Below are positions 1-58,039 of a stretch of DNA of 64,000 nucleotides, piece after piece. The DNA comes from Candidatus Aceula meridiana. Its GTDB lineage: Bacteria > Omnitrophota > Gorgyraeia > Zapsychrales > Aceulaceae. Numbering within the stretch: position 1 is the first letter of the stretch; each line of letters begins with the position of its first letter. The translations under genes were made by a program, and so were the position numbers. The stretch lies in NCBI GenBank assembly GCA_030765185.1, contig JAVCDE010000024.1, forward strand, positions 251,538-315,537. Reading direction: 5' to 3'. The notes beneath the pieces are model-generated. The model had not been told where the DNA came from and searched no databases. It worked only from the letters and a program-made list of their open reading frames with translations.

Positions 1-3000
1 GGTAGCATCCAAATTAAATTCAAATCCATGGCCCTCGGATTGAATATCTATATCCAATGTATCCGCGCCAAGATCGATACCACCGGGACTACTTGATAAT
101 TCTTTATCATCAGAAAAATCAAAAAACCCGTTAGGCCCAACAAGCTCTTTTATAAATTGAGAAGCTTTTCGTTGATCAGTACCAGGTGCTCCAGAATATC
201 CATACTTCAATGATTCTTTATACGTGTCAAAACTTTCTTTGCTATCAAGAACTAAAATAAATTGTATTTTTGCGTAATTCGCTTGAACTTGAGATCGCAA
301 AAAGTCTCCAAGACTCTTGTAATCTTTTATTTCCCCTTTAACAGTAATGGGAGTAAAAACTTGATTATTTGATTCTACCTGCTTTTGCCTTTCTGAAATC
401 TCTTTATCAAAATTGTGAGACCAATAAGGATCATTTAGATCAATACTTATCTGCTCTCCAAAAAGTGTTGGATGAGATTCGGTTAATGCTTGCGCAAAAT
501 CAGCTGGTGAATCATAAAAAACAACTGCATTCCTAAAATGTCCTGGTCGCACACCTTTAAAAAATTCGTTCATCTTCTCAACCTGCTCTTTGGTAACAGT
601 CGAAGAAACAGTTTTAATCTTAGAATTAAAATCTACCGTTTCACTGGTAAACGCAGGAACATTATTAAAATACTCATCCCATGTATAAATAAACTTTTCA
701 AAGAATTCATCGCCTTGAGCGAGGTTAGATCTTTTTCTAAACTGACGCAGCTGCGTATCGACAATATACCAACCATCGATGACAACAACAACATGATTAG
801 CTGTTTTCATGCCCTCAACAATATTTTGAGTATCCTCTGGAATATAAAAATCCATCTTTTTAAAATCATGATTCGTCATTAACTCCGTGTTTTCACGATA
901 ACTTCGCATGATATCGTCGCTTGCTCGCTGACATTGATTCCAATCATAATCATTGAGAACAGGGTATCGGCTTGCCGTGACATCAGCCAATTGCTTAAAC
1001 TGTTCAACCGTCCAATAATTTTCACCCATATTCGACGAACTCTTTTTTGGAGTTAATTTATACGCATCATTCGGAACGACAGGACCAAGCGTATGAGCTG
1101 GAAGCTTTAAGAAAACAGTCTCAATGTTAAAATCATTTAACATTTCTTCGCTTTGCAAAAACTGAGAACTCTTAGGCCCCGATTGCTCCATCTTAATCGG
1201 ATAGTTAAATACAATTTCAGCATCATCAGACAAGTATTCCTTAAATTTTATTAAATAATTAGCAAGATTTTCGGCAGAAGCCACATGCCGAAATCCCATG
1301 TGACCTGCAAGCACATCCACCTTAAGACCATCTTCTTCTAAAAGTTTAAAAAGCTGACGAAAATCAGCAAAATAAAATGTAATACGAGGATCTGCAAAAA
1401 CCCAATTTGGATCAAAGATGTCTCCCACGCCGATAAGCTTTATATTTGTGATTTCCGACGGAATTTGTCTAGCAATTTCATTAAGCGCTTCAGGGTTAAG
1501 CACGCCCGCATCCACATAGACAATGTCTTTTTTTTCTGAAGCATTTTTAGCACGTTCAATTAAATCAGAAACAACATCAATCTGTAAATTTGAATTAAAT
1601 ATATCCAAATCTGTACTCGTATACGTATAGCCCTGTTCTCCTAGCGTCGTCTCACTAAAATCAAAAACACCTTGAGGCTGATCCTTTTTTCCTTCAATAA
1701 TAATATATCGATTTTTATTTTCCAATAATCTTTTCAACTTTTCGCCCTGATCCTTGCTTTGCACCAAAGTTTTTATGGCTGGAGCGTTGCGCCCGGAAGA
1801 AATCTCAAATACTTGCGACTGCTCTGATATTCTACCATAAACCTCATCTGTATATTCTTGTGCGCTAACTGGTATATATCTTCCAAAGGGGATTTCACCG
1901 GATTGAATGTTGCTCCACAAACCAATATTTTTAGCATTCTTAGCTAGAATAACGTTTTTGAGCAACGGGGCAATTTCTTCCCAAAGAGCCCTTGTAATCA
2001 TTCCCTCGCCCTTTTCTCCAGATTGGGAAACTTCCGTTACCATTACATTCGCACCCATCGATCCAAATCTTTTTTCTATCGTCAAAAGATAGTCTTTGTC
2101 ATTAAATTCAAAATATATTGTATTTTCGCCCAAATGACGAATCTTAATCGTCCCTATTTTCTTATCCCCAGACTTTTTCCTATTATGACCAATCAATCCA
2201 TCTTTATCTGAAACAAATTCTCCATACTTGCTACTTGCTATTTCAACAAAAAGAGGAAACAATCCCCCTGGATCGTCCTTGGCAAATGCAAGAAATTGCT
2301 CAAAAGAAACAACAGTTGATCCGCTTAAGAAATGCCTGATTTGAGAAACGACGCTAGGATCTCCACCTTTCCACAAAACTTTTCCAATGTCTGTCTCGAC
2401 GCTAACAATAACATTGATATCTTTTCTAAGGTCCTTAAAATAATTTAGGATTTTATTGACAGATTCAATGTCTATCTCCAAATCTTTCTCTCCTTTGAAT
2501 ACTTTAAGAAAAAGGTTAACTTTTTCTTCATCATATTCTAATGCTTCCCAAATATGCTGAACTAAAAAACGATAGCCAATAGCATTTGCTCTATCATTAT
2601 TCTCGGCAACTCTTCCCTGCTCGTTAAAATCTAAAGTTTTTAACTGCTCCACTAATTCTTTTTGATAATCAGGATCCTTCATATATTCGGTGTAAAGCAC
2701 TTGATTCAAATCATAAGTCTTTAATTTCTTCATACCCCCTTTAATACGCTTGGCTAAAGTAGGATGAATCTTGATCTCTGCAGGATCTTTAATCTCGCTT
2801 TCTAGATCAATTGCATCTAAAAGCAACTGACTCGCTTTAAGGACTTCTTCTTCTGTTGGGTTCTGTTTATACATCAGCTGTGAGTTTGCCTGAATATCAA
2901 CAACAAAAAAATCCTTTTGCCCTTCTAGTTTCATTACCTGCAATTGATATCCATGATGATCGCCAGTTGTCTTACCAAATTTCTTTTGAACAGCATCAGA

Positions 3001-5352
3001 GTGGTGTATCCCTTTATGAAAATAAACTTCTCCAGTTTTAATATCCACAATTGCCTTAATCCCCGAATAATTACTAATTTGATCTTCTTTATATTTTCTA
3101 GCTATATCAGCAGGAACTTTTAGCGGTACTCTTAGTTGTGGTAGATTATAAGAATTGAGCTTATCTGAAAATTTCTCCTCGATGCCTTCTATGGCAGGAG
3201 AGCTTACCCTGACAAGATTTTTGTTTGTTTGAGCATACGGGACAAGGCTATATTCATAATCCCTATTTTCATCCTCTAAAATGATTTTAACCGGTATCTC
3301 CGTAAGGGGTTTTGCGTTAATCTTAATTTCTTGATTTGTTTTTCTAACCGTAGAAACAAACAGTGCGATTTCTTCAACACCTTTTTCAGGGTCATGTTCA
3401 ATATTCTTTGGTTTAATACGAATATCGGCAACGCCTAAATTTCTCATCTCATCAAAAATTTTCTCATAAAATTTAATAACTTCGCGCCCTTTGTCCGTAT
3501 TTGGAAATGTCATTTCAAAATTAAAAGTTCCATCAAGGGCTAAATTTTTATTAAACAAATTTAGCCAAATAGCAATAGGATCCGGATCGTATTGCGCAAC
3601 AAACATTGACATAATCAAATCCATCTTAATAGGGTTACCCTTATCATCAAGGAATTTTACTGTCTTAATGTCCTCTTTTTTAAAAACAAAAGGTTTTTCA
3701 GGTCTTAAATAATCATCTACATTTTTGCCCGGATGCATCACTAAAAATCTTGCACGCCCATCAAGAGTCATTGTCTGGGAATTAATATTATTAAGATCTG
3801 CCCCAAAAACTTCAACAGCCTCTGGTCCAAATGTCTTTTTGCTTCTTACTCTTCGAATAGAACCTATATCTTCATGTCGAGAGCTTATCTCCTGTCTATA
3901 CTCATCCAAACTTTTATTTCCATACTGTTCCAAAATTTCTATCAATGTCATCCCCGCTCCACACCCTGCGTCTAAAACACGCAAAGGTCTACCGCGCTCA
4001 ATGCGGTGAGTTTCGCTAGAAAATCTTTTTAAAAATAGAGCTAAGGGATCTCTAGCTTGTGCTTTCTTAAACCTAAGATCAGCTTGATTGAGCCACCAAT
4101 CATAATTTTTTATTCCACGAAATGCCGTATATTCCCTCTGGCGCGACAACAAGTACTTCTGACTTTTTTGTAACGGTTTAGTTTCCAGAGTACTTGAAAC
4201 CTGACGTAATTTCGCAGGAGAACAGGCGCTCGTTACCTCGCCGATATCTCCAGTTGGCCGAATTATATCTTCTGTTTCGCCTAGCGAAAATCCACCTGAG
4301 AAATATTTGCGCGGAACATTACGCTGTTCGTACTGATCGTATTCAACTTTAACAAAATCACACACACCTTTTTTGAATGCATCAAGATATTGATTATAAA
4401 TTTTTTCTCCAGCCTCTTTATCTTCACCATCTACACCAGCAATCTTGGCCTTGTTGCTGTATTTCTGATTTAAAATAGAATTTTTAAGAGTATTTTTAAA
4501 CCATGTTGCCAGAATCAAAGAATTATAAATTTGACGAAGATTCGCAAAATTTTTGCCGTTGTTGACTTCCCTCTCAATTTGAGGCAAAACAATCTCTCGG
4601 ACAATCTTAGAAGATAAATTACTAACCTCTTTTGTTTCTTTAGCTTTATCTAATTTTGCTCCTATCTTTTGATTATCCAAATTATTCTCAAGAGACAAAT
4701 AATCTTCCTCCAGCATAACCTTAAGATAGCTGCTAACAACAAAAGCATGAGGTCCATTTTCATAAACAACAGCCTTTTGCGGCACAATCCAAACCTTATT
4801 AAAGGTATTAACGGGTATCTGCGTTGTTCCGTATTTCTCAAAAGCTTCTTTGTAAATTCGATCCCAAAATCTCTTGCCCAATTCATCTTCTGGGTAAATA
4901 AGCGACGCTGTAATTTGTTTTAAAATATAGTCTTGAGCCAAAAGGTCTTGGCCCATTTCTGTTTGACCAAAGGCATCTGGGACAATGCGGTCTTCTTCGT
5001 AGGGAGAAAGGTTGACCCAAAGCTCTTGCTTTGGAATCGTTATAGATGCCAAGAAATATTTGATGAGTTTTTCACTCTCTTTTTTAAACTCTTGATCGCT
5101 TAAAGAGGTGTCTCCAATATCCATAATAAAATCAAGCTTAAAAGGATTTTTAGGATCAACTCGTACGCCTCGAAGCAAAACAGGTGAAAAGCTTGGCGTA
5201 AGCGTGATCATAGCCCCAGGCGCAGGCAAAAAGCTTAAAGATTGCGCAAAAGAAGCCGAAGGCATAATCATATTGGCTAAGAATGCAAACATCACAAACC
5301 AGCTAAATAATTTATGATAACGTTTTGTTTTAATATATTTATACATATACAT
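1..5352 (-). CDS. Very large secreted protein (>1780 aa, 3' end beyond window start) with an internal class-I SAM-dependent methyltransferase-like domain; function unknown
   Basis: My own minus-strand translation runs from the ATG at 5352 to position 1 with no stop codon seen; the supplied track lists only short plus-strand ORFs here. N-terminus MYMYKYIKTKRYHKLFSWFVMFAFLANMIMPSASFA reads as a Sec signal peptide. Motif I VLDAGCGAGMTLIE followed by VFGADLN is typical of Rossmann-fold methyltransferases. K/E/D-rich composition matches neighbouring genes. Confidence 0.6.
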   Translation of the reverse strand, partial: MYMYKYIKTKRYHKLFSWFVMFAFLANMIMPSASFAQSLSFLPAPGAMITLTPSFSPVLLRGVRVDPKNPFKLDFIMDIGDTSLSDQEFKKESEKLIKYFLASITIPKQELWVNLSPYEEDRIVPDAFGQTEMGQDLLAQDYILKQITASLIYPEDELGKRFWDRIYKEAFEKYGTTQIPVNTFNKVWIVPQKAVVYENGPHAFVVSSYLKVMLEEDYLSLENNLDNQKIGAKLDKAKETKEVSNLSSKIVREIVLPQIEREVNNGKNFANLRQIYNSLILATWFKNTLKNSILNQKYSNKAKIAGVDGEDKEAGEKIYNQYLDAFKKGVCDFVKVEYDQYEQRNVPRKYFSGGFSLGETEDIIRPTGDIGEVTSACSPAKLRQVSSTLETKPLQKSQKYLLSRQREYTAFRGIKNYDWWLNQADLRFKKAQARDPLALFLKRFSSETHRIERGRPLRVLDAGCGAGMTLIEILEQYGNKSLDEYRQEISSRHEDIGSIRRVRSKKTFGPEAVEVFGADLNNINSQTMTLDGRARFLVMHPGKNVDDYLRPEKPFVFKKEDIKTVKFLDDKGNPIKMDLIMSMFVAQYDPDPIAIWLNLFNKNLALDGTFNFEMTFPNTDKGREVIKFYEKIFDEMRNLGVADIRIKPKNIEHDPEKGVEEIALFVSTVRKTNQEIKINAKPLTEIPVKIILEDENRDYEYSLVPYAQTNKNLVRVSSPAIEGIEEKFSDKLNSYNLPQLRVPLKVPADIARKYKEDQISNYSGIKAIVDIKTGEVYFHKGIHHSDAVQKKFGKTTGDHHGYQLQVMKLEGQKDFFVVDIQANSQLMYKQNPTEEEVLKASQLLLDAIDLESEIKDPAEIKIHPTLAKRIKGGMKKLKTYDLNQVLYTEYMKDPDYQKELVEQLKTLDFNEQGRVAENNDRANAIGYRFLVQHIWEALEYDEEKVNLFLKVFKGEKDLEIDIESVNKILNYFKDLRKDINVIVSVETDIGKVLWKGGDPSVVSQIRHFLSGSTVVSFEQFLAFAKDDPGGLFPLFVEIASSKYGEFVSDKDGLIGHNRKKSGDKKIGTIKIRHLGENTIYFEFNDKDYLLTIEKRFGSMGANVMVTEVSQSGEKGEGMITRALWEEIAPLLKNVILAKNAKNIGLWSNIQSGEIPFGRYIPVSAQEYTDEVYGRISEQSQVFEISSGRNAPAIKTLVQSKDQGEKLKRLLENKNRYIIIEGKKDQPQGVFDFSETTLGEQGYTYTSTDLDIFNSNLQIDVVSDLIERAKNASEKKDIVYVDAGVLNPEALNEIARQIPSEITNIKLIGVGDIFDPNWVFADPRITFYFADFRQLFKLLEEDGLKVDVLAGHMGFRHVASAENLANYLIKFKEYLSDDAEIVFNYPIKMEQSGPKSSQFLQSEEMLNDFNIETVFLKLPAHTLGPVVPNDAYKLTPKKSSSNMGENYWTVEQFKQLADVTASRYPVLNDYDWNQCQRASDDIMRSYRENTELMTNHDFKKMDFYIPEDTQNIVEGMKTANHVVVVIDGWYIVDTQLRQFRKRSNLAQGDEFFEKFIYTWDEYFNNVPAFTSETVDFNSKIKTVSSTVTKEQVEKMNEFFKGVRPGHFRNAVVFYDSPADFAQALTESHPTLFGEQISIDLNDPYWSHNFDKEISERQKQVESNNQVFTPITVKGEIKDYKSLGDFLRSQVQANYAKIQFILVLDSKESFDTYKESLKYGYSGAPGTDQRKASQFIKELVGPNGFFDFSDDKELSSSPGGIDLGADTLDIDIQSEGHGFEFNLDAT

Positions 5353-5750
5353 AATTACTCTATAAATTTTATTTTTAAGTCCACCCTAACGCATAAAGTA
5401 TATACTAATATATTAAGAAAAAAAGGGCATTTGGGCCCTTTTAAGAAAGCGTTTGCATGAAGATATATGTTACGGAATGCAGCGCTCGTAAGCTATTTGT
5501 CCAAATTAATACCAAACTCAAAGAGTGTCGGGAATCCTAATAATATTAGTAAGATTTATATTATTTGGGGAGACTTGAGATTTCTCAATTCGCCCCAAAT
5601 ATAACACATAATCTTTAATATTGCCACTTTATGCCAATTTTTTTAAAATGGTCATCACAAGACACCAATTTATAAAAACTTACTACAAAAAGTTGCTCCA
5701 ATAAACGCTGTAAACCATAAATAGCGAATATCCACCCAAATAGCTAAACG

Positions 5751-7417: not shown

Positions 7418-7600
7418 CTATTTAATGCCCATCTTCCTCAAAATCGCCATCATCGGACACCATCCGGTAAAAGCAGACTGAAAAAGATTAAGCCCGACAA
7501 AGGCCGTAAACCACAACCAGTGAATATCGACTTTAACCGCTAAGACAACGCTTAAAAGAATAAAAAATCCCGCGACGCCCCGTAACATTTTTTCTATCAT
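7418..7600 (-). CDS. DUF2892 (YgaP C-terminal-like) small membrane protein
   Basis: 60 aa, two TM segments, conserved GWCP motif of DUF2892. Confidence 0.6.
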   Translation of the reverse strand: MIEKMLRGVAGFFILLSVVLAVKVDIHWLWFTAFVGLNLFQSAFTGWCPMMAILRKMGIK

Positions 7601-7623
7601 TTTTATACTCCTTAATAATGCCC

Positions 7624-7693
7624 AAGCTTACGAAGCAAAAGTGAGTGTAAGCTTTCAGGCCAAATTAATCCCGTGCGCGAAACGCATCGGGAT
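7624..7693 (-). promoter_or_regulatory. Structured 5' leader element, copy A (two hairpins, conserved spacing), upstream of the DUF2892 gene
   Basis: Hairpin 1 is ATCCCGTGCGCG/aaa/CGCATCGGGAT at 7668-7693 (one bulged T). Hairpin 2 is AAGCTTAC...GTAAGCTT at 7624-7654. Same architecture and arm sequences as copy B at 55962-56032. Confidence 0.55.
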
Positions 7694-7762
7694 AAATGAT
7701 ATTAATTATTTCTGCGTTGATCCTGGCTGTTTGGGCCAAAATTTCCTTAATGTTAATTTCTT

Positions 7763-9815: not shown

Positions 9816-12331
9816 TATTTATTCCTTTCGGTTAAACAAATTTTTCTTTTTGAGGCAAAATAACACAGGCCTGAAAAAGCAACAATGACCCCAATTATAA
9901 TAAATGTTATTGGCTTCCACCCGGCTGCCGTATATCCAAACAATACATACGCAACTGCGCAGGCAACAAATAAAGCGATGAGCATGCAATTTGAGCATTT
10001 ACAGCTTAACCGCTTATCGCTTTCTTCAAAAATCCATGCCGGTCGAAATGAAACAATTGCCGGCAAGATAAATAATGTTGCGATAGATGAGACCGCCATA
10101 ATCGCAAACATAAAAAATCCAACAGTTTTATAAGGAACTAACGGAGCTGCCAAAAGTGGCAAAAATCCGATCGCCACCACAAGCGCATTGCGAATAATCG
10201 CACGTCCGGGCCCTGCGAACATTTCTTTAGCAGTTTCCTCCCAGGTCTTCTTTTCATGATAGACCTCGGTAGTCCGTTGAATAAAGTGTATTGCAAAATC
10301 AATCGAGAGCCCCAGAGTTAATGCCGAAAGAACAGCAACCGGCATATCATAATCTTTTCCAAAAAATCCTAAAAGACTATAAATAAAAATAATCGTTACC
10401 GTCAAAGGAATCATAGAAATTAGCGCTTTTATCGGTGAACGGAACAAAAAGAGCATCATAAAAAGAACAATGACAAAACTTCCTAAGAAATTCTTAAGCA
10501 TACCGACAACCATATTATTTTGCCAAATAACATTAATATAAGTCAAGCCTGCCCAATGGGACGTCAAAGGATAAGGCGGTGGGTTATCCTTAATATACTG
10601 GCGGATATCTTTGACAACAGCATCCATGTCTTTGTTATCCCCGCTCTTTAATTGAACCCAGATATTCAGCTTAGAATAATTCGGTGTTGTCATATGCCAA
10701 AGATCATCAGGCTTATGTGAATTCTCAAAAGAAATCAAGCACTGAGCTACGGCCTGCTTCGTTTTTGGAATAATATTATTTATCCTGTCTCCTCCTAAAA
10801 GCTCGTAATAAATTTTCTTGATGATATCCGCAAGCGACGTGGTCTTGCCAACATAGCCGGTTTCCATCAAATTGCTTTGAAGCTTTTCAACATAATGGAG
10901 CATCTTTGGCTGGATAAAAATTTCATCGTCTTTATTCTCAGCTTCTAAAACAAAATAGGCCTCATACGTTCCGGCAAAATGCTCATTTAGAACCTTATCC
11001 GCCACACGAATAGGATGCTTCGCCTCAAACCAGCGCACCGGATTGTCATTAACCTGAATGTGGCTAATACCATAAAACGAGATCACAACTAAAACAACCG
11101 TAACAGCCAAAACCGGCTTGAAGTGTCGAGTTGCGACAATTTTAATAATTCGTAAAACCTTATCAAGAAAAACAGTCTTCTCTTTCTTGTCTGCATGCCC
11201 AAACTTTAAGAAATGCTTAGCATTCATCAGCATCACATAGGCAGGAATCAAAGAAATTGTCAAAACCCAGGCAATCAAAACGCCTAAGCCAACAAAAATA
11301 CCAAAAACCTGAACCGGCGGTATCGGCGAGAACGACAAGGAGAAAAACCCAACCGCAGATGTGAGCGATGTAAAAAGCATCGGAGAAAAAAGCTCATCTA
11401 AAACAAACCGCATTGTTTTTTGCTTATCATTAAAAAGATGATATTTGTCAAAAAACTCACTTAGAATATGTACAGAATCTAAAACGGCTATAGGCATTAA
11501 AAAGATTGGAATCATCGAACTCATGATATGAACCGGAAAACCAAATCCGATTAAAAGCCCCATGGTCACTACTACTGTAGCCATCGCCACTAGCATAGGC
11601 GCCACAATTAATGAAACGGATTTAAAGAAAAACCACATTAAAAGAAAAATAACTAATCCTGCCAAAGGCGCGGAAATTGCCATCTGCTTAAACATTTCAA
11701 CGCCAAACTGGTCATTGGCAATCGGCAAGCCTGTATAATGAAATTCCTCTTCACCAGGGTATTTTTCGACAATCTTCTGAATTGCCTGCTTCACTTCATA
11801 GCTTATGTCCTTTTTCTCAATGGGGATATAAAGCGCTAAAGCCTTACCGTCTTCAGAAACAAGACTTCCGTGAAACATGGGATTGTCTTGCGCTTCATCG
11901 CGAACCAAAAGAGCCTCCTGTTGATTCTTGGGAGGAGCCTCCATCAACCAATTAAACCTTACCGTACCAACACCGGCTTGCTGAATATTGTCTTTTGTGG
12001 ACGGAGCAATAATCTCTGAAGCAATTACACCATCAACTTTCTTAATTTCTTCGGTAATGTTATAAATCTTTGTTAAAGTCTCAATATTAAAAACGCCGTT
12101 CGGATCTTCATTATTTATAACGCCGATAACAACAAGGTCGTATATCGCAAATTCTTTTTTCATCTCTCGGTTAAAAACACGCACCGGTGCATCAGAGGGA
12201 AGCATATTTTCTGGGTCTGTATCAACTTTGATGCGCGGATATTGAATAAGCGCAAGAATTGCAAAAGCCGCAATAATCCAAATAAGAACTTTAGGCTTAC
12301 GGATAGAAAATTCAACAAATCTTTTAATCAT
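9815..12331 (-). CDS. MMPL/RND-superfamily exporter (HpnN-like, 12 TM with two large periplasmic loops)
   Basis: 838 aa. Two repeated 6-TM bundles with SSD-like hydrophobic cores (PMLVAMATVVVTMGLL..., LSIDFAIHFI...). Confidence 0.8.
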   Translation of the reverse strand: MIKRFVEFSIRKPKVLIWIIAAFAILALIQYPRIKVDTDPENMLPSDAPVRVFNREMKKEFAIYDLVVIGVINNEDPNGVFNIETLTKIYNITEEIKKVDGVIASEIIAPSTKDNIQQAGVGTVRFNWLMEAPPKNQQEALLVRDEAQDNPMFHGSLVSEDGKALALYIPIEKKDISYEVKQAIQKIVEKYPGEEEFHYTGLPIANDQFGVEMFKQMAISAPLAGLVIFLLMWFFFKSVSLIVAPMLVAMATVVVTMGLLIGFGFPVHIMSSMIPIFLMPIAVLDSVHILSEFFDKYHLFNDKQKTMRFVLDELFSPMLFTSLTSAVGFFSLSFSPIPPVQVFGIFVGLGVLIAWVLTISLIPAYVMLMNAKHFLKFGHADKKEKTVFLDKVLRIIKIVATRHFKPVLAVTVVLVVISFYGISHIQVNDNPVRWFEAKHPIRVADKVLNEHFAGTYEAYFVLEAENKDDEIFIQPKMLHYVEKLQSNLMETGYVGKTTSLADIIKKIYYELLGGDRINNIIPKTKQAVAQCLISFENSHKPDDLWHMTTPNYSKLNIWVQLKSGDNKDMDAVVKDIRQYIKDNPPPYPLTSHWAGLTYINVIWQNNMVVGMLKNFLGSFVIVLFMMLFLFRSPIKALISMIPLTVTIIFIYSLLGFFGKDYDMPVAVLSALTLGLSIDFAIHFIQRTTEVYHEKKTWEETAKEMFAGPGRAIIRNALVVAIGFLPLLAAPLVPYKTVGFFMFAIMAVSSIATLFILPAIVSFRPAWIFEESDKRLSCKCSNCMLIALFVACAVAYVLFGYTAAGWKPITFIIIGVIVAFSGLCYFASKRKICLTERNK

Positions 12332-30516: not shown

Positions 30517-30540
30517 ATTTACCCCGCACCTGCGGGGTAA
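30517..30540. promoter_or_regulatory. GC-rich palindrome TTACCCCGCA-cc-TGCGGGGTAA (candidate CsoR/RcnR-type operator or REP-like hairpin)
   Basis: Perfect 9-10 bp inverted repeat in an otherwise AT-rich intergenic region, 170 bp upstream of the acs start. No U-tract on either side. Confidence 0.3.
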
Positions 30541-30591
30541 ATTCGCCCGACAAGCTTATGTTCATTTGTCGCTCCATAAGTTTGGGCTTAT

Positions 30592-32601
30592 TTAGAATTC
30601 AAAACTTGCACCTCCCACATAGTTGCGCCCGGGTGCGGGATAAAATCCCATATCTCCTGCCCCGGAAGAATAGACTCCATAAGCATCGTGTTCGCGGTCA
30701 AACACATTCTTAACGCCAAACCAAACATCAATCCCCTTCCACTTGTAATCAACCTTAAAATCAAATGTAATAAACGAGTTTAACTTAGGCTGATTATTGT
30801 TCTGATCACTTATTGCAAAACGTTTATCAATCCACGCCAAAGAAATAGTTGTCTGCAGCCCGTCGAGAGGACTTACTGTCACACCAGAAGAAATTTTATT
30901 CTTAGGGACAAACGGTACTTTGTTCCCCCCGTACTCTCCTCCTTTAAAAAAAGCATCCTGCCAGGTCCAATGAATAAAAGGTTGAAAAAGCCCATCAAAA
31001 AAATCTGTTTTTCCCTCAACCTCAAACCCCCAATGGCGCGTCTTTGGCACATAATTAGAATTCTGAAAGGTTACAGGATCAAAATAAATTTCATTCTCAA
31101 TATCCATAAAGAAAAAATTGGCACCTGTCTTAACCCATGAAAAAGAAATATCTCGAATACCAAATTCATAATTATGGCCGACTTGATGCTTAAGGCTTGT
31201 GTTCAGCCCCCCTCCGCTACCCCACACATATTGCCACTTATTTTGATAGAATTCATCCGTAGCCGGAAGCCTCAACGATCGGCTGTAATCAAAATAAATT
31301 TGAGAATTCTTATTGTATTTGTATCCAAGCCCAAAATTCATTGACCCATCGGTGATAGATTTTCTTTCTTTATTCGCTACAACAGCGATTTGGTCAAACA
31401 GATATTCTGCCCGTGTTGCCCTTCCTCCGAAATTAATGAGAAACTTATCAAAAAGCTGCATCCTCTCTAAAGCGTAAAATTCATAAGTTTGTTTTATGAT
31501 ACCTGTAAAATCTTGAGCTGAGACCTGATTGCCAGAACGTACTTTATCTTTTGCGTAAAAAAAGTCGACCCCAGCGGTAAGATTGTTATTAAATCCTTCT
31601 TCCGCGCTGCTTTCTATCTCAAACTTTGGGCGTGATTCGATGCTTTGAATCTGATGAGATGTTTCATAATTTCCAAAGCTCGAGACATTAAGGCCCTTGT
31701 TATAGCGCTTACGATAAGAATTAAACCAAGAAAATTTTGCATCACTTCCCCCTATGTCAAAATCAATCTCAGGCTCAGCATTCACAAAAACATCAGACGT
31801 CCACCCTCGGTCATTGGCATGCGTCGTCCCTGTCCGGCCAACGGTTGCAATATCCGAGGCAAAGAGTGCACCCGGCTGACCATACTTGTCGCGATGGTAT
31901 CCAGAGGAAAAATTCAACGCAAAGCTGTCCGTTAAGCTTGTCGATAAATTTCCAAAATAATCATTAGCCCAGTAGTCTCCATTAGAACGATAACCGGATG
32001 TCTGCTCATGAGCATAACTCAAGAAATAATCCATATTCTTAAACGTTGAGCCATTGGAAATCATTTCCTTGTGATATTGATAACTTCCGACTTCTGTCCG
32101 TATTTTTGTGGGCGCGCTAGCATCACGATGCCCTTTTTTTGTGATGATGTTAATAACCCCGGCAGAAGCGTTGTCTCCATAAAGAACTGTTGATGCCCCT
32201 CTTAAAATTTCAACACGCTCAACAGAATCTAAACTTATTTGACCCCAATCTACACCGGATAGATCAACCTGATTGGTTCTTCTTCCATCCACTAAAACAA
32301 GAATATTGGCGTTACTAGTCTCACCAAATCCGCGAATATCAACACTAATACCTTTTGGATTATTTAATTGGTTATTAACAACAATCCCGCTGCGCGTATT
32401 AATAAGTTCCGGGATAGATGTTGCGCTCGATTTCTCAATATCATCAGAAGTAATAATACTCACGCCCTTGCTGATATCAGAAGCCAGAAGACTCGTGCGA
32501 CTCGTTAAGACATTGATAGTTCCTAAGTCTAAAAGCTCTTCAGCATGGACCGGCAAAGATATAAAAAATAAAAATCCAATGACGACAAAAACTCTTTTCA
32601 C
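30592..32601 (-). CDS. btuB: TonB-dependent outer-membrane receptor (BtuB-like, given the cobalamin riboswitch leader); GTG start
   Basis: Signal peptide; plug domain; C-terminal GGASFEF ending in Phe; 669 aa. The reverse complement at the start reads AGGAGGaaaaaGTG. Confidence 0.8.
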   Translation of the reverse strand: MKRVFVVIGFLFFISLPVHAEELLDLGTINVLTSRTSLLASDISKGVSIITSDDIEKSSATSIPELINTRSGIVVNNQLNNPKGISVDIRGFGETSNANILVLVDGRRTNQVDLSGVDWGQISLDSVERVEILRGASTVLYGDNASAGVINIITKKGHRDASAPTKIRTEVGSYQYHKEMISNGSTFKNMDYFLSYAHEQTSGYRSNGDYWANDYFGNLSTSLTDSFALNFSSGYHRDKYGQPGALFASDIATVGRTGTTHANDRGWTSDVFVNAEPEIDFDIGGSDAKFSWFNSYRKRYNKGLNVSSFGNYETSHQIQSIESRPKFEIESSAEEGFNNNLTAGVDFFYAKDKVRSGNQVSAQDFTGIIKQTYEFYALERMQLFDKFLINFGGRATRAEYLFDQIAVVANKERKSITDGSMNFGLGYKYNKNSQIYFDYSRSLRLPATDEFYQNKWQYVWGSGGGLNTSLKHQVGHNYEFGIRDISFSWVKTGANFFFMDIENEIYFDPVTFQNSNYVPKTRHWGFEVEGKTDFFDGLFQPFIHWTWQDAFFKGGEYGGNKVPFVPKNKISSGVTVSPLDGLQTTISLAWIDKRFAISDQNNNQPKLNSFITFDFKVDYKWKGIDVWFGVKNVFDREHDAYGVYSSGAGDMGFYPAPGRNYVGGASFEF

Positions 32602-32611
32602 TTTTTCCTCC

Positions 32612-32848
32612 TAAAATAAATGCCCTCCCGGCCGCATACTTCGCAGCTGGGAGGGCATCCTCGTTATAACTCTCAACTTTATATATTCTCTGCATTGTCC
32701 TTACGCAATACAGTTGAATAAAATTTAATTCTTAGGATAAGGCATTCTGGCTCTTTTGATTTTTCAACCAAAATTACAGCAGCGGGACTGCTTCGGAATC
32801 TCACCGAATTTCCCTTATTAAGACCTAATAAATAGGCCACCTAAAAGT
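32612..32848 (-). ncRNA. Cobalamin (B12) riboswitch with terminator-type expression platform
   Basis: The minus-strand RNA contains GGUGGCC...AAUAAGGGAAAUUCGGUGAGAUUCCGAAGCAGUCCCGCUGCUGUAA, matching the consensus AAnAGGGAA..GGUGnnAnUCC..GCnGnCCCGCnACUGUAA. A B12-box-like GAGCCAGAAUGCC follows. A terminator hairpin GCCCUCCC...GGGAGGGC followed by AUUUAUUUU sits just 5' of the RBS. Confidence 0.65.
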
Positions 32849-32850
32849 CT

Positions 32851-33420
32851 CTAAAGAACAAACGCCAAGCGTGTATTTTTAACGCGCGCAGCAATAATTT
32901 CATAAACTCCAAAAAGTGCAACGCTATAAACCAATGTGCTTGCCAGCGTAGAACGGAAAAATGGAATAGCCATCATATAGCAAGTGGTAAGGCCTTCAAA
33001 AGTTGGCGGATAATACCCGGCGAGCCAAAATCCAAAATTGGTCACAATAAAAAACACAACAGCAGAAACCAAACTTGTGCCTGCTATGCCAAGCCAATTC
33101 TTGTTCTTACGCAGCTTAAGCCCTAGCACTGATACCAAAATAAGGCTTCCCCAAGTAAAAAGCATCATAGAGTGTATCCCTAAAATAATATCTGTTACCA
33201 CCATCAAAAAAATAGGAAGTAAAAGAGCGTATTTTTTATCAAGATAAACACCGCCAAACAAAATAAGCGCAATGACAGGGGTAAAATTTGGCACATGTGC
33301 GATTACTCTCGCAAAAAAACCAAGAAGCAACAAAAATAAAACTAACATATTATCTCCCTTTTTTAATTTTGTACTGATTATAGTGTCATCTAAAGATAAT
33401 CGCAACAAAAAAATGCCCAA
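32851..33420 (-). CDS. Polytopic small membrane protein (5 TM), function unknown
   Basis: Hydrophobic profile; likely start at MLVLFLLLLGFF. Last gene of the HK-REC operon; its stop abuts the riboswitch 5' end. Confidence 0.5.
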   Translation of the reverse strand: MGIFLLRLSLDDTIISTKLKKGDNMLVLFLLLLGFFARVIAHVPNFTPVIALILFGGVYLDKKYALLLPIFLMVVTDIILGIHSMMLFTWGSLILVSVLGLKLRKNKNWLGIAGTSLVSAVVFFIVTNFGFWLAGYYPPTFEGLTTCYMMAIPFFRSTLASTLVYSVALFGVYEIIAARVKNTRLAFVL

Positions 33421-50157: not shown

Positions 50158-50286
50158 AATAAATCTCCTCTGGTTATATTTAAGGTGAACATCCTCCGAA
50201 ACCTTGGCGAAGGATGGATAAGGTTGGATTATATTTTAGCGCTTTGCTAGACTTGGGACAAGACAAAAAGAAAAGTTTCTTGTCTG

Positions 50287-55537: not shown

Positions 55538-55962
55538 ATAATTCCGTCTAAAGATAGCTTTCCGCTGCCATATTGCAAAAAGACAAACGCGCTTAGGGCA
55601 ATCATTGCCGGATAATAAAAATCATCAGGATGAACTTTGGCAACCGCAACAATCATAATAATGATAACAGGAACAGCTGCGATACGGCTTAAAAACCCAA
55701 TAGCGAGAAGCCCGCCGCAAATAATTTCTGACCACCCGACAACATAGGCCATCATCTTAGGAAATATAATTCCTAGCGTCGATAAATATCCTCCAAAAGC
55801 AGCCAAACCCGGCCCGTCAAACATGCCATATACTTTTCCTAATCCTGCTTTAATGAAAATCCAAGCCACAAAAAGTCTTAATATCCCAATGCTCCATCCG
55901 GTATAAAAACAGCATTTCCCGTTCGTCTCGTGTGTCATTTTCTCCTCCTTCAATGAAGCCAT
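55513..55962 (-). CDS. DoxX-family membrane protein (true start likely the second ATG at about 55938, behind GAAGGAGG)
   Basis: DoxX fold LRLFVAWIFIKAGLGKV...; 4 TM. Confidence 0.8.
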   Translation of the reverse strand: MASLKEEKMTHETNGKCCFYTGWSIGILRLFVAWIFIKAGLGKVYGMFDGPGLAAFGGYLSTLGIIFPKMMAYVVGWSEIICGGLLAIGFLSRIAAVPVIIIMIVAVAKVHPDDFYYPAMIALSAFVFLQYGSGKLSLDGIICHLRKQK

Positions 55963-56032
55963 AGTTTACGGAGCAACAGCGGTCGTAAACTATATGGCTG
56001 AATTGATCCCGTGCACGTAAGTGCATCGGGAT
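55962..56032 (-). promoter_or_regulatory. Structured 5' leader element, copy B, upstream of DoxX
   Basis: Hairpin 1 is ATCCCGTGCAC/gtaa/GTGCATCGGGAT at 56006-56032 with the same bulged T as copy A. Hairpin 2 is TAGTTTACG...CGTAAACTA at 55962-55992. The 13-nt spacing between hairpins is identical in both copies. Confidence 0.55.
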
Positions 56033-56037
56033 TTCCT

Positions 56038-57444
56038 CTATTTAAAACAATACGGATCTTTGTCTTTTAAAATATCTTTTTTGCAACCGCTTGTAACCGC
56101 TAAGCATCCTCCGCACGCATGACGCAAAGAACATCCATCGCATTCTTTGGCCCCTCTGCGATATCTTTTTGCCATCTTTGAATCATAAATTTCTTGAAGG
56201 CTCTGTTTTAAAATATTTCCTATCAAAGACGGAAACTTGCGGCAGGCATGCACTTCTCCGTCGGCGAGAACAGCTACAAAATTAAATGCAGCGCCGCACC
56301 CAAACCCTGTACAGCCACTAAACAGTTTATCATTCTCACGCTCTAAAACAATATTAATTAAATTATCTTTAAAACCTATAATCGGATTTGTCTCTGACGC
56401 TTTGATATATTCCTCTAAAAACCGCTGATAATCTTCTTTTTTCGGAAGCCCTAAACCCTCCCCCTCTCCTGTTTGCGACAAACGATTAAATGTAAAATAT
56501 TCTGCATGCCCTCTAAGTTTCTTAGCTAAAGGTAGAATCTGGCTCATATTCTCTTTTGTCAAAGTCAGCATCACCGCAGAAGAAATCTTTAACTCTCTTA
56601 AAATCTTTAAAAACTTTATCACAGCGCTAAAATTATTTTTTCCTCGAATATAATCGTTATGTTCAGGTAACCCTTCCAGGCTAACCTGGTAATATCCGGG
56701 CTTTTGAATCTCAATAACTTTTTTTAAATCTTCCCTTGAAACAGGATTGCCTAAAATAGATGTTGAAAATCCCTTTTGCTCAGCTCTTTTATAAAGTTTA
56801 AAGAAATGAGGAGATAAAAATGGATTCCCTCCTGAGAAACAGACATGCCCTCGGACGCGGTTTGTCCGAGTAAAGCGCTCGAGGCCATCAAGAACCTTAT
56901 ACCCTTGCTCTAATGTAAAAGGTGAACGTCTTGTTCTGTCGTAGCAATGTTTGCAATGCAAATCGCAAACATTCGTAATATGCCATTGCAGGGTGAATGT
57001 ATCAGAAATAATAAATTTTTGATCAATATTCTTTGTATTCTTAAAAATTCGCGTATTTCGTTTTAGCTTTGGCGTTGGCTTTAAAATGATTCCTTTTTTT
57101 GCGGCTCTTTTTAAGTTTAACTCAAGCGCCTTAACGGAGATGTTTCCTTGTTGCGCGGCTTGTTCTAGAGAAATATTTTCAGCCACCATTTTAAGCGCTA
57201 AAAGTTCTTCTTTTGAAGCCGGCTTAGCTTGAATACTTACGTCTCCTTGTTTTTTCCAAACAAGAAGCCATTCTTTTTGTTTTTTAGGATTCGTTCGTGA
57301 TTGTGAAAATTTCCAATTGGAGAGAAAAATTTCCAAGGTAGGATTGATTTGGAAATTGTTTACCTTTTTAGGCCAGTGCGGCTTTAGAGAGAAAACTTTT
57401 CTTTCAAGCTTTTCAAGTTTTTGAAGTTCTTTAGTAAAATCCAT
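56038..57444 (-). CDS. Radical SAM / SPASM-domain enzyme with a 150-aa N-terminal extension carrying a sigma70-region-4-like HTH (candidate peptide/protein-modifying maturase)
   Basis: HITNVCDLHCKHCY (CxxxCxxC) at about residue 160. C-terminal SPASM Cys array GCTGFGC...HAC...ECDGCSLRHACGGC...SGC...YCF. N-terminal ISLEQAAQQGNISVKALELNLKRAAKKG resembles a region-4/RRE-like helix-turn-helix. Confidence 0.8.
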   Translation of the reverse strand: MDFTKELQKLEKLERKVFSLKPHWPKKVNNFQINPTLEIFLSNWKFSQSRTNPKKQKEWLLVWKKQGDVSIQAKPASKEELLALKMVAENISLEQAAQQGNISVKALELNLKRAAKKGIILKPTPKLKRNTRIFKNTKNIDQKFIISDTFTLQWHITNVCDLHCKHCYDRTRRSPFTLEQGYKVLDGLERFTRTNRVRGHVCFSGGNPFLSPHFFKLYKRAEQKGFSTSILGNPVSREDLKKVIEIQKPGYYQVSLEGLPEHNDYIRGKNNFSAVIKFLKILRELKISSAVMLTLTKENMSQILPLAKKLRGHAEYFTFNRLSQTGEGEGLGLPKKEDYQRFLEEYIKASETNPIIGFKDNLINIVLERENDKLFSGCTGFGCGAAFNFVAVLADGEVHACRKFPSLIGNILKQSLQEIYDSKMAKRYRRGAKECDGCSLRHACGGCLAVTSGCKKDILKDKDPYCFK

Positions 57445-57956: not shown

Positions 57957-57972
57957 CTGTTCCTCCTCATTA

Positions 57973-58039
57973 ATCCCGCGCGCGGGACTTTCTTGGTTTA
58001 TAATAAAGCAATTATACCAACTGCCCTAACGGTGTCAAT
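57973..58039 (-). promoter_or_regulatory. Consensus sigma70 promoter TTGACA-16-TATAAT (minus strand) followed by a 14-bp perfect GC palindrome TCCCGCGCGCGGGA in the 5' UTR of the Cys/Met-rich protein gene
   Basis: -35 at 58034-58039 and -10 at 58012-58017 (reverse complement). Palindrome at 57973-57986, about 20 nt before the RBS. Confidence 0.6.

What the first reader, a model, noticed from the sequence alone, without database searches (positions are those of the whole stretch)
7624..7693. About 100-nt structured leader duplicated at two loci (copy A here, copy B at 55962-56032) with compensatory base changes
Both copies, on the minus-strand RNA, have the same layout. Hairpin 1 is AUCCCGAUGCrC / loop / GyGCACGGGAU with an identical bulged nucleotide. 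A 13-nt spacer GCCnnnAnAGyUU follows. Hairpin 2 has the inner end ...UUAC / loop ACnCnCUnUUGCUyC / GUAA... Then comes GGCnUnAUUrAAGGAG and the AUG. Hairpin-2 arms differ between copies (AAGCUUAC versus UAGUUUACG) but stay complementary. The hairpin-1 loop differs (gcgaaacgc versus acgtaagt) while the arms stay identical. This is the covariation signature of a selected RNA structure rather than a recent DNA duplication. Both copies sit 5' of small membrane proteins tied to sulfur/thiol handling (DUF2892/YgaP-like and DoxX) and 3' of an upstream operon. I cannot assign it to a known riboswitch or RNA family.
Basis: seen in the sequence. Interest (0 to 1): 0.7.

Follow-up and report, generated by a model that had tools for sequence, protein, structure and literature searches.

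The report
Dispersed two-hairpin leader RNA cassette
The duplicated ~80-nt element is real and its two-hairpin RNA fold is under selection. It is a gene-independent cassette found just upstream of the ribosome-binding sites of unrelated genes in a few Omnitrophota (Ca. Aceula) genomes, not a sulfur/thiol riboswitch.

Summary
Copies A (7693-7613, minus strand) and B (56032-55951, minus strand) share a two-hairpin layout, P1 then P2, that ends 12 nt before the AUG. No Rfam family matches.

A covariance model found more copies:
- a third intact copy in the window (C, 30521-30593, plus strand, antisense to its neighbours);
- a decayed copy (D, 5534-5455);
- P1-only forms;
- five more full copies in other contigs, upstream of mlaD (two species), ilvD, a CitMHS transporter and a histidine kinase.

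Over 7 copies, 94% of pair cells form pairs and 16 of 27 pairs changed on both sides. G-U pairs place the fold on the mRNA strand.

The sulfur link fails. At the orthologous ygaP, doxX, mlaD and citMHS junctions, close relatives have 12-44-nt (citMHS: no element) gaps with no element. In filled mlaD sites the element sits immediately 5' of the same native Shine-Dalgarno sequence.

Best reading: a low-copy, dispersed, structured 5'-UTR or intercistronic cassette that acts in cis after transcription. An unknown factor probably recognises the near-invariant P1. The closest known kind is the Neisseria REP2/CREN-type upstream repeat. How it works and how it spreads are inferred, not shown.

The parts
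7668..7693 (-). Copy A, hairpin P1 (AUCCCG-A-UGCG-loop-CGCA-CGGGAU, with a bulged A)
   Evidence: Sequence. The pattern occurs twice in the window and 0 times in shuffles. Fold. Covariance-model hit of 86.6-91.6 bits.
7613..7667 (-). Copy A, hairpin P2. Its parts are UAAU/AUUA, an internal loop, GCCU/GGGC, AAGCUUAC/GUAAGCUU and the loop ACUCACUUUUGCUUC.
7598..7612 (-). Shine-Dalgarno AGGAG plus AUG of the 60-aa YgaP-like gene. There are 12 nt between the end of P2 and the AUG.
7694..7762 (-). Extra 69 nt between the stop codon of the 423-aa gene (no Pfam hit) and P1. It is absent from the orthologous 12-nt junction in relatives L252/L253. It holds a -10-like TAATAT (7704-7699) and a small hairpin UGGCCCAAACAGCCA.
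56006..56032 (-). Copy B, hairpin P1. It starts 5 nt after the TAG of the radical-SAM/SPASM gene.
   Evidence: 92.6 bits.
55951..56005 (-). Copy B, hairpin P2. Its parts are CAAU/AUUG, a UC/UC internal loop, AGCCA/UGGCU, UAGUUUACG/CGUAAACUA and the loop ACCGCUGUUGCUC.
55936..55950 (-). Shine-Dalgarno AAGGAGG plus AUG of doxX, 12 nt after P2
30521..30593 (+). Copy C, a third intact copy. P1 is a short form, ACCCCG...CGGGGU. P2 has AAAU/AUUU, GCCC/GGGC and AAGCUUAUG/CAUAAGUUU. It lies antisense between the TonB-receptor stop codon and that gene's terminator, with no Shine-Dalgarno sequence or AUG after it.
   Evidence: Covariance-model hits of 37.8 bits (E=5e-8) and 66.2 bits. Sequence, fold, context.
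5455..5534 (-). Copy D, a probable decayed copy. It is 68% identical to B over 79 nt, and its 3' half no longer pairs. It lies between promoter-like sites and a terminator-like hairpin (5442-5421), upstream of a gene of more than 1795 aa.
   Evidence: Covariance-model hits of 18-22.8 bits (E=0.003-0.011). blastn.. The score lies within the range of chance P1-bearing sequences, so this copy is tentative.
57969..57988 (-). P1-only form: G-UCCCG-cgcg-CGGGA-U followed by UAAU, then the Shine-Dalgarno GAGGAGG of the 147-aa Cys-rich protein. It lies about 23 nt downstream of the -10 of a TTGACA-16-TATAAT promoter (58038-58011). The orthologous site in L260 (3020-3045) carries a long P1, AUCCUG-A-UGCAC-uuc-GUGCA-UGGGGU.
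50191..50215 (-). P1-like hairpin AUCCUUCG...CGGAGGAU in the ilvD 5' region. At the same site, downstream of the same TATAAT, relative L259 has a full P1+P2 copy (11353-11439).
   Evidence: Homology of this hairpin to P1 is inferred, not shown.

Best explanation
This is a small family of ~80-nt structured RNA cassettes, dispersed in Ca. Aceula and related Omnitrophota genomes.

Anatomy:
- P1 is a GC-rich hairpin with a bulged A and a near-invariant stem.
- P2 follows with no linker. It is a long irregular hairpin made of NAAU/AUUN', a UC/UC internal loop, two covarying stems and a U/C-rich 13-17-nt loop.

What is shown:
- The cassette is folded on the mRNA strand.
- It lies immediately 5' of the native Shine-Dalgarno sequence of unrelated genes.
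- At each orthologous site examined it is found in only one species or one small clade.
- Where it is retained, it is kept by selection on its fold.

What is inferred:
- It acts in cis and after transcription on the downstream cistron, altering translation initiation and/or mRNA stability at a 5'-UTR or intercistronic position.
- The sequence-conserved P1 and the P1-P2 junction are the recognition site for an unknown trans factor. Insertion of the cassette would then tie unrelated genes to a common control, as proposed for Neisseria REP2/CREN repeats.
- It is not a sulfur/thiol-specific riboswitch.
- How it spreads is unknown.
For: Real family, not in Rfam:
- Covariance-model hits of 47-93 bits cover 8 intact copies: A, B and C in the window, L066, L257, L259, L266 and L246.
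- As a control, 757 kb of unrelated DNA that carries the exact P1 19-mer scored at most 26.7 bits.
- No Rfam match appeared at E<=10.

RNA fold under selection:
- 94.3% of pair cells are paired, against 78.5 +/- 2.0% in shuffles (0 of 500 shuffles reached it).
- 16 of 27 pairs changed on both sides, against 7.3 +/- 1.8 in shuffles.
- Controls with the 3' partners slid by 1-3 columns gave 23-41% paired.
- The pair closing P2 is U-A, C-G or A-U in different copies.
- In the copy upstream of citMHS, both P2 stems have entirely different sequences, yet the loop and the junction are conserved.
- Several G-U pairs exist only on the sense strand.
- The P1 half-sites are separated by 6 to 20 nt. That excludes a dimeric DNA operator.

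Independent of gene function:
- Downstream genes are ygaP-like, doxX, mlaD, ilvD, citMHS and a histidine kinase.

Present or absent at orthologous sites:
- ygaP junction: 12 nt in L252/L253 against 162 nt in the window.
- doxX junction: 22 nt in L259/L260 against 99 nt in the window.
- mlaF-mlaD junction: filled only in A. lacicola and L257. It is empty (25-44 nt) in four relatives, including A. meridiana itself.
- citMHS: filled in A. lacicola and empty in L257.

Position next to the Shine-Dalgarno sequence:
- Filled and empty mlaD sites share the same AAGGGGA(A/G)U. The element ends exactly before it.
- P2 ends 12-13 nt before the AUG in A, B, L066, L257, L259 and L266.

Closest known kind:
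- REP2 repeats are 120-150 bp with about 25 copies and no terminal inverted repeats. [quoted passage not shown]
Against: - No expression, processing or binding data exist, so the cis post-transcriptional role and the trans factor are inference.
- The sample is small: 8 intact copies from about 5 organisms, several of them found through the element itself.
- Copy C is antisense to both neighbours and has no gene after it. That fits a selfish repeat or an sRNA better.
- The Shine-Dalgarno sequence is not paired in any predicted fold, so there is no obvious switch.
- No terminal inverted repeats and no consistent target-site duplication were seen, so the way it spreads is unknown. 'Gain' could in principle be repeated loss.
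Confidence: 0.5

Rival explanations
1. Selfish or neutral dispersed repeat (REP/REPIN- or MITE-like). The hairpins would serve transposition or recombination as single-stranded DNA, or be incidental, and the copies would have no regulatory role.
For: - The element is present or absent at four orthologous sites.
- There is one antisense copy (C) and one decaying copy (D).
- P1 comes in discrete sequence types that are shared between loci and species. The type-2 P1, with its UUUAAUGAA 5' extension, sits at mlaD in L257 and at citMHS in A. lacicola. This suggests exchange between copies.
- An 8-nt direct repeat, ATTAAGGA, flanks the insert at copy A.
Against: - Seven of 8 intact copies point the same way as the downstream gene and end exactly at its Shine-Dalgarno sequence.
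- G-U pairs are strand-specific.
- The loop and the junction are conserved while the stems covary. The two mlaD copies keep identical junctions (AAAUUCGCAG ... CUGCUCAUUUAAGGGGA) although P1 and the P2 interior differ.
- There are no terminal inverted repeats, and no direct repeat at B or L066.
- Copy number is low.
Confidence: 0.2
2. Ligand-sensing riboswitch. This covers the first reader's sulfur/thiol version and a version that senses a global signal such as a second messenger or an ion.
For: - The location is a 5' UTR.
- Stems covary while a bulge, an internal loop and the terminal loop are conserved.
- Copy D is followed by a terminator-like hairpin.
- Many downstream products are membrane or secreted proteins, or a kinase. 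That is a pattern seen with second-messenger riboswitches (own knowledge).
Against: - The downstream genes share no pathway.
- The element is absent from the orthologous leaders of ygaP and doxX in close relatives.
- No alternative pairing that sequesters the Shine-Dalgarno sequence was found.
- P1-only forms exist.
- There is no Rfam match.
Confidence: 0.12
3. RNA processing or elongation signal. The two coaxial hairpins would be a site for an endoribonuclease, giving differential stability of operon segments. Alternatively they would be a put/EAR-like RNA that modifies RNA polymerase to read through terminators. A self-cleaving ribozyme is a further variant.
For: - Copies B, L066 and L257 lie between cistrons of the same strand.
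- The two hairpins have no linker between them. HK022 put RNA is two adjacent stem-loops (own knowledge).
- Copy D lies directly upstream of a terminator-like hairpin and a very long gene.
Against: - The strict adjacency to the Shine-Dalgarno sequence is not explained.
- L246 has only about 11 bp in P2, too short for RNase III.
- No known ribozyme or antiterminator family matches.
- D is the most degenerate copy.
Confidence: 0.1
4. Trans-acting small RNA family. Copies C and D would be stand-alone sRNA genes, and the U/C-rich P2 loop would pair with the Shine-Dalgarno regions of targets.
For: - C has no downstream gene.
- D sits between promoter-like sites and a terminator-like hairpin.
- The P2 loops are pyrimidine-rich (CUCC, UUCC, CUUC).
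Against: - Most copies are embedded in mRNAs directly before a start site.
- Loop-to-Shine-Dalgarno complementarity is no better than for shuffled loops.
- There is no terminator after C on its own strand.
Confidence: 0.05
5. DNA-level operator for a transcription factor (the P1 palindrome), or an intrinsic terminator of the upstream gene.
For: - P1 is a near-perfect inverted repeat with conserved arms.
- It lies downstream of upstream genes, and in the P1-only case just after a promoter.
Against: - Half-site spacing varies from 6 to 20 nt.
- Compensatory and G-U changes keep a hairpin, not a sequence.
- No U-tract follows P1. The terminator scan did not call it, although it did call canonical terminators nearby.
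Confidence: 0.03

Closest known systems
Neisseria REP2 (CREN) repeats and the similar Borrelia plasmid IR sequences (PMC3184786, sections 11-12)
   Same: - Low-copy dispersed intergenic repeats (REP2: 23-26 per genome) with no terminal inverted repeats.
- Two internal stem-loops predicted at the RNA level.
- They sit immediately upstream of unrelated ORFs, next to the ribosome-binding site, and so form part of the 5' UTR.
- They are proposed to put those genes under common control.
   Different: - No sequence relation was tested or is expected, because the phylum is different.
- The core here is shorter (~81 nt against 120-150 bp).
- REP2 carries its own promoter, ribosome-binding site and ATG. 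Here the Shine-Dalgarno sequence is the native one, the same as in empty mlaD sites, and a promoter is only hinted at (-10-like hexamers upstream of A, D and L066).
- Some copies here are intercistronic.
- The RNA fold is supported by covariation here.
REP/BIME and REPIN elements, pneumococcal BOX, enterobacterial ERIC, Neisseria Correia elements (PMC3184786, PMC3116915, PMC2267715)
   Same: - Dispersed intergenic repeats that fold as stem-loops and are transcribed with neighbouring genes.
- They can change mRNA stability or expression.
- Presence varies between related genomes.
   Different: - Those families have tens to hundreds of copies in both orientations, often at 3' ends or between convergent genes.
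- Correia and RUP have terminal inverted repeats and target duplications. REPs are mobilised by RAYT transposases.
- Here the copy number is low and the orientation is biased toward the downstream gene.
- The 3' end abuts the Shine-Dalgarno sequence. No terminal inverted repeats or target-site duplications were seen.
Orphan cis-regulatory RNA motifs and riboswitch candidates (Rfam-type 5'-leader motifs)
   Same: - 5'-UTR position.
- Covarying stems with conserved unpaired nucleotides.
- Size of about 80 nt.
   Different: - The downstream genes have no coherent function.
- The element is absent from orthologous leaders in close relatives.
- No expression platform was found.
- No match to any of the 4227 Rfam families.
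Mycobacterial MIRU intercistronic repeats (own knowledge, not checked in a paper here)
   Same: - Short repeats inserted between cistrons of operons.
- Oriented with the operon and placed at the stop/start junction.
   Different: - MIRUs are direct repeats that carry short ORFs overlapping the flanking stop and start codons.
- Here there is no conserved ORF, because the AUG inside P1 is not conserved. The element is a structured RNA.
Phage HK022 put RNA and Bacillus EAR processive antitermination RNAs (own knowledge; the paper read did not cover put)
   Same: Two adjacent stem-loops with essentially no linker, acting in cis on the transcript that carries them.
   Different: No sequence or family match. 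Adjacency to the Shine-Dalgarno sequence is not a feature of put or EAR. Only the degenerate copy D precedes a terminator.

Membership tests
   94.3% of pair cells are paired, against 78.5% in shuffles. 16 of 27 pairs changed on both sides.
   Downstream genes are ygaP-like, doxX, mlaD, ilvD, citMHS and a histidine kinase. One copy has no downstream gene.
   The ygaP junction is 12 nt in L252/L253 and the doxX junction is 22 nt in L259/L260. Only the mlaD copy is shared, by two close species. Four further relatives lack it.
   The Shine-Dalgarno sequence is unpaired in the predicted folds. The loop-to-Shine-Dalgarno duplex is no better than with shuffled loops. Only the degenerate copy D is followed by a terminator-like hairpin.
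   Needs in-line probing or ITC.
Any described RNA family (Rfam 15) | Covariance-model match at or near the gathering score | tested here: not met
   Nothing was found at the element, even at E<=10. The only window hit is the cobalamin riboswitch at 32718-32859.
REP2/CREN-type upstream repeat cassette | Several dispersed copies in intergenic DNA of one genome | tested here: met
   There are 3 intact copies and 1 decayed copy in the 64-kb window, and 2 copies in 13.6 kb of A. lacicola.
REP2/CREN-type upstream repeat cassette | Immediately upstream of ORFs, next to the ribosome-binding site, in the gene's orientation | tested here: met
   This holds for 7 of 8 intact copies. P2 ends 12-13 nt before the AUG in six copies and 0 nt before it in L246. 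Copy C is the exception.
REP2/CREN-type upstream repeat cassette | [quoted passage not shown] | tested here: met
   Folds, covariation. No terminal inverted repeats were found in filled-versus-empty comparisons or in the repeat search.
REP2/CREN-type upstream repeat cassette | The repeat itself carries the promoter, ribosome-binding site and ATG | tested here: inconclusive
   The Shine-Dalgarno sequence and ATG are native at mlaD, because the same AAGGGGA...ATG occurs in empty sites. -10-like hexamers lie 5-14 nt upstream of P1 in A, D and L066 but not in B.
REP2/CREN-type upstream repeat cassette | Co-regulation of the downstream genes | not testable with these tools
   Needs transcriptomics.
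REP2/CREN-type upstream repeat cassette | Sequence homology to Neisseria REP2 | not tested
   No REP2 sequence was compared. The claim is similarity of kind, not membership.
MITE | Terminal inverted repeats and target-site duplication | tested here: not met
   No terminal inverted repeats were found. An 8-nt direct repeat occurs at copy A only, at about the level expected by chance. There is none at B or L066.
REP/REPIN (RAYT-mobilised) | High copy number, both orientations, typically at 3' ends or between convergent genes | tested here: not met
   There are 3-4 copies per 64 kb, and 7 of 8 are sense and upstream of a start codon.
REP/REPIN (RAYT-mobilised) | Cognate RAYT (Y1 transposase) gene in the genome | not tested
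   Only 64 kb of the genome is available, and it was not scanned for PF01797.
Transcription-factor operator (DNA palindrome) | Fixed half-site spacing and conservation that is symmetric between strands | tested here: not met
   The spacing between ATCCCG and CGGGAT is 6, 14, 15, 16 or 20 nt. Strand-specific G-U pairs are present.
Intrinsic terminator | GC-rich hairpin followed by a U-tract | tested here: not met
   P1 is followed by NAAUUY. It was not called by the terminator scan, which did call nearby canonical terminators.

The most novel reading that the evidence does not exclude
The cassette is the portable operator of a post-transcriptional regulon. An unidentified RNA-binding protein, or a small-molecule or second-messenger ligand, recognises the near-invariant P1 hairpin and the P1-P2 junction. 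Each new insertion just 5' of a Shine-Dalgarno sequence then recruits another gene into that regulon. This would be a mobile, RNA-level way of rewiring gene control in a little-studied candidate phylum.
Probability: 0.25. Interest if true: 0.7.

Novelty: new member of a known kind. Interest (0 to 1): 0.45.

Why it matters
If the reading is right, this is an undescribed structured RNA family in the candidate phylum Omnitrophota. Its fold is under selection, yet it comes and goes at orthologous sites and always lands against a ribosome-binding site.

That combination is rare. The nearest precedent is Neisseria REP2/CREN. It would offer a natural experiment, filled against empty alleles in sister species, on how a portable 5'-UTR module changes translation or mRNA stability.

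It also removes a false lead. The element says nothing about sulfur or thiol sensing. The practical output is a covariance model (R2) that can be run on whole Omnitrophota genomes.

Tried and rejected
- Known RNA families. The Rfam gathering scan of the window and permissive scans around A, B and L066 found nothing at the element.
- Sigma-54 or sigma-70 promoter inside the element. By eye, the spacings do not fit and no hexamers are conserved between copies. The promoter scan did not call the element.
- Transcription-factor operator. Rejected because half-site spacing varies and G-U pairs are strand-specific.
- Terminator. P1 has no U-tract.
- Leader peptide. The AUG inside P1 (CCCGAUGC) opens short ORFs in A, B, L066 and L246, but it is absent from C, L257, L259 and L266, and the reading frames differ.
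- P2 loop acting as an anti-Shine-Dalgarno sequence. RNAduplex energies of each loop against its own 3' flank are no better than for shuffled loops, with 43-94% of shuffles at least as good.
- MITE-type ends. No terminal inverted repeats were found. An 8-nt direct repeat occurs only at copy A.
- Viral origin. There were 0 matches to the specific pattern in IMG/VR. A looser pattern gave only noise.
- Pattern scan of genomes. The metagenome scan gave 7 loci, of which only L245 (the same as L066) and L246 are true copies.
- Loose hairpin regex for P1-only forms in the window. It was too unspecific to use.
- Taxonomy of L246.
Full report
**1.

On the minus strand, copy A runs from 7693 to 7613 and copy B from 56032 to 55951. 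Both begin with the same hairpin, P1: AUCCCG, a bulged A, an inner stem UGC(N)/(N)GCA, a variable loop, then CGGGAU. The pattern ATCCCGATGC-N4-12-GCACGGGAT occurs exactly twice in the window. It occurred in none of 100 dinucleotide-preserving shuffles. A and B are 74% identical over 95 nt. Each folds as described, with z-scores of -3.5 and -4.8 against shuffles.

NAAU, directly after P1, pairs with AUUN' directly before the Shine-Dalgarno (SD) sequence, and GCC pairs with GGC. P2 is therefore one long irregular helix with these parts:
- an outer stem;
- a 2x2 UC/UC internal loop;
- stem P2a;
- a 2-3-nt bulge;
- stem P2b;
- a 13-17-nt loop.

The downstream genes are a 60-aa YgaP-like protein (PF11127) and DoxX (PF07681).

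**2. It is not a described RNA family.**

The Rfam gathering scan of the window finds only a cobalamin riboswitch at 32718-32859. Permissive scans (E up to 10) around A, B and a homologue in another genome find nothing at the element.

**3. There are more copies, upstream of unrelated genes.**

An exact-P1 scan of genomes returned 118 loci. Almost all were coding matches in GC-rich genomes. One was a true copy in Ca. Aceula lacicola (L066), between mlaF and mlaD. The metagenome scan added L246, upstream of a 920-aa histidine kinase.

The MetY protein encoded in the window is 100% identical to one from Ca. Aceula meridiana (Omnitrophota), on a 538-kb contig.

A covariance model built from four copies found further copies:
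- **C, window 30521-30593, plus strand (37.8 bits, then 66.2 bits with the second model).** It lies between the stop codon of a TonB-dependent receptor gene and that gene's terminator. It is antisense to both neighbouring genes, with no SD sequence or AUG after it.
- **D, window 5534-5455 (18-23 bits).** This is a weak, decayed copy upstream of a terminator-like hairpin and a gene of more than 1795 aa.
- **E, L257 9906-9988.** It sits at mlaF-mlaD in the assembly GCA_028693815.1.
- **F, L259 11353-11439.** It sits upstream of ilvD.
- **I, L266 10645-10732.** It sits upstream of a CitMHS transporter gene in A. lacicola.

As a specificity control, 757 kb of unrelated DNA in which every locus contains the exact P1 19-mer scored at most 26.7 bits. 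True copies scored 47-93 bits. Copy D falls inside that noise range, so its homology rests mainly on the 68% identity to B over 79 nt.

**4. The fold is under selection on the sense strand.**

The counts below come from a 7-copy alignment with 27 pairs:

| Measure | Observed | Shuffled control |
|---|---|---|
| Pair cells forming standard pairs | 94.3% | 78.5 +/- 2.0% (0 of 500 shuffles reach it) |
| Pairs changed on both sides | 16 | 7.3 +/- 1.8 |
| Pair cells paired when 3' partners are slid 1-3 columns | n/a | 23-41% |

One caveat applies. The structure was derived from these same sequences.

Individual cases are clear:
- The pair closing P2 is U-A, C-G or A-U in different copies.
- P1 changes from AUCCCG/CGGGAU to ACCCCG/CGGGGU (C), ACUCUG/CGGAGU (E), AUCCUG/CAGGAU (F) and GCUCCG/CGGAGU (I).
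- In copy I both P2 stems have completely different sequences (CCCCUGC/GCAGGGG and CGUUUUGC/GCAAAACG). The loop (UUCGCUUUUGCGC, against CACUUUUGCUUC in A) and the junction AAAUU...UCAUUU are kept.
- Several G-U pairs would be A-C mismatches on the other strand.
- The distance between the P1 half-sites varies from 6 to 20 nt. That rules out a dimeric DNA operator.

**5. The sulfur link and the 'conserved leader' idea fail.**

The downstream genes are ygaP-like, doxX, mlaD, ilvD, citMHS and a histidine kinase. Orthologous junctions in close relatives are empty:

| Junction | Sites with the element | Sites without it |
|---|---|---|
| 423-aa gene to ygaP | window, 162 nt | L252/L253 (MetY 85% identical), 12 nt |
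| radical SAM to doxX | window, 99 nt | L259/L260 (DoxX 86% identical), 22 nt |
| mlaF to mlaD | A. lacicola (164 nt) and L257 (127 nt; MlaD 84% identical) | relatives with MlaD 80, 69, 65 and 61% identical, 25-44 nt; the last is A. meridiana itself |
| upstream of citMHS | A. lacicola | L257 |

At every site examined the element is confined to one species or one small clade. Gain is therefore more parsimonious than repeated loss.

At mlaD, empty and filled sites share the same native SD sequence and spacer (AAGGGGA(A/G)U...AUG). The element ends exactly in front of it. This explains the constant 12-13 nt from P2 to the AUG in six copies.

No terminal inverted repeats and no consistent target duplication were found. 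An 8-nt direct repeat flanks the insert at A only, at about the level expected by chance.

**6. The element is modular.**

P1 also occurs alone. In the 5' UTR of the 147-aa Cys-rich protein gene, a short P1 (UCCCG-cgcg-CGGGA, then UUAAU) precedes the SD sequence. It lies about 23 nt downstream of the -10 hexamer of a consensus TTGACA-16-TATAAT promoter (window 57988-57969). The orthologous site in L260 has a long P1 whose inner stem matches that of copy B.

At ilvD the window has a P1-like hairpin (50215-50191), where L259 has the full element behind the same TATAAT.

P1 exists in discrete sequence types that cross loci and species. Type 1 occurs in A, B, L066 and L246. Type 2, with a shared UUUAAUGAA 5' extension, occurs at mlaD in L257 and at citMHS in A. 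lacicola. The two mlaD copies share their junction and P2a but carry different P1 types. This suggests exchange between copies, and sequence-specific recognition of P1.

**7. What it most likely is.**

Shown:
- It is a low-copy dispersed family, roughly one copy per 20-40 kb in the Aceula-like DNA sampled. That sample is biased.
- It is folded as RNA on the sense strand.
- It is placed against the SD sequences of unrelated genes.
- It is polymorphic between sister species, and kept by structural selection where it is retained.

Inferred:
- It acts in cis on translation initiation and/or mRNA stability of the downstream cistron, with P1 as the binding site of an unknown factor.

The closest described kind is the Neisseria REP2/CREN repeat, together with the similar Borrelia IR sequences. 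These are 120-150 bp with about 25 copies and no terminal inverted repeats. They have two RNA-level stem-loops and lie immediately upstream of unrelated, co-regulated genes (PMC3184786). The differences are that REP2 brings its own promoter, ribosome-binding site and ATG, whereas here the SD sequence is native and a promoter is only hinted at.

I file the element as similar in kind, not as a member. No sequence comparison was made.

**8. Rivals.**

- **Purely selfish repeat (0.2).** It explains copies C and D and the gain/loss pattern. It does not explain the orientation bias, the adjacency to the SD sequence, or the conserved loop and junction beside covarying stems.
- **Riboswitch (0.12).** It fits the architecture. 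It does not fit the gene contexts, the empty orthologous leaders, or the lack of an expression platform. Loop-to-SD complementarity is no better than chance.
- **Processing site, put-like antiterminator or ribozyme (0.1).** Cannot be excluded, but has little specific support.
- **sRNA family (0.05).** Cannot be excluded, but has little specific support.
- **DNA operator or terminator (0.03).** Disfavoured by direct tests.

**9. Limits.**

- The sample is 8 intact copies from about five organisms.
- The taxonomy of L246 is unknown.
- There are no expression data.

The decisive step is a covariance-model census of complete Omnitrophota genomes, followed by transcript mapping and reporter assays on the natural filled and empty alleles.

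Noticed in passing
window 32718-32859 (-): A cobalamin riboswitch (RF00174, 57.6 bits) lies upstream of a small ORF and a TonB-dependent receptor gene (30592-32601; Plug and beta-barrel domains). Copy C of the element sits antisense at the 3' end of this receptor gene.
   Followed up: partly
window 1-5385 (-): A stop-free reading frame of more than 1795 aa has a signal-peptide-like N-terminus and runs off the left end of the window. The 988 N-terminal residues have no Pfam hit. A giant secreted or surface protein is likely.
   Followed up: partly
window 57513-57956 (-), with 56038-57444 (-) and 58067-61216 (-): A 147-aa protein has a signal peptide, repeated GKGSCGK motifs at both ends and a very acidic Met/Glu/Asp-rich middle, with no Pfam hit. 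It sits between an AcrB-type RND pump gene and a radical-SAM/SPASM gene, behind a consensus TTGACA-16-TATAAT promoter. It could be a peptide-maturase pair or a metal-binding protein. The arrangement is conserved in L260.
   Followed up: no
window 6000-64000: Almost every ORF of 120 aa or more that looks like a gene is on the minus strand across about 58 kb. This is an unusually long co-oriented stretch. Copy C is the only element copy on the plus strand.
   Followed up: no
L252 11493-11550: Directly after the pspC stop codon in the relative there are pieces that resemble scrambled parts of the element: GGAAAUCCCA, CGCUUUUGCUCC and AAAUUCG. They have no covariance-model hit. They may be a remnant or chance.
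   Followed up: no
window 7724-7751 (-): The 69 nt upstream of copy A contain a second AAUUUUGGCC...GCC mini-hairpin and an ATTAAGGA that repeats the sequence at the P2/SD boundary (7609-7616). This could be a remnant of an earlier partial insertion or a target duplication. Statistically it is about what chance would give.
   Followed up: partly
L004, L005, L011, L021 and about 40 other genome loci: Many Gaiellales, Solirubrobacterales and other Actinomycetota contigs carry ATCCCGATGC-N6-GTGCACGGGATC inside a conserved coding region (peptide about IPMLNVHGI). This saturated the genome pattern scan. It is unrelated to the element.
   Followed up: partly
L267 817-1961: One A. lacicola-type contig has an IS3-family transposase pair (HTH_Tnp_1 and rve) inserted just upstream of the mla operon. 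Other contigs of the same locus lack it.
   Followed up: no
L244 1157-1194 (-): In a contig of GC 0.55 and unknown taxonomy, an exact type-1 P1 hairpin without P2 lies 35 nt upstream of the AUG of a 144-aa gene, followed by AAGGAGG. It could be a distant P1-only form or a chance match. A few chance hits were expected in the metagenome scan.
   Followed up: partly
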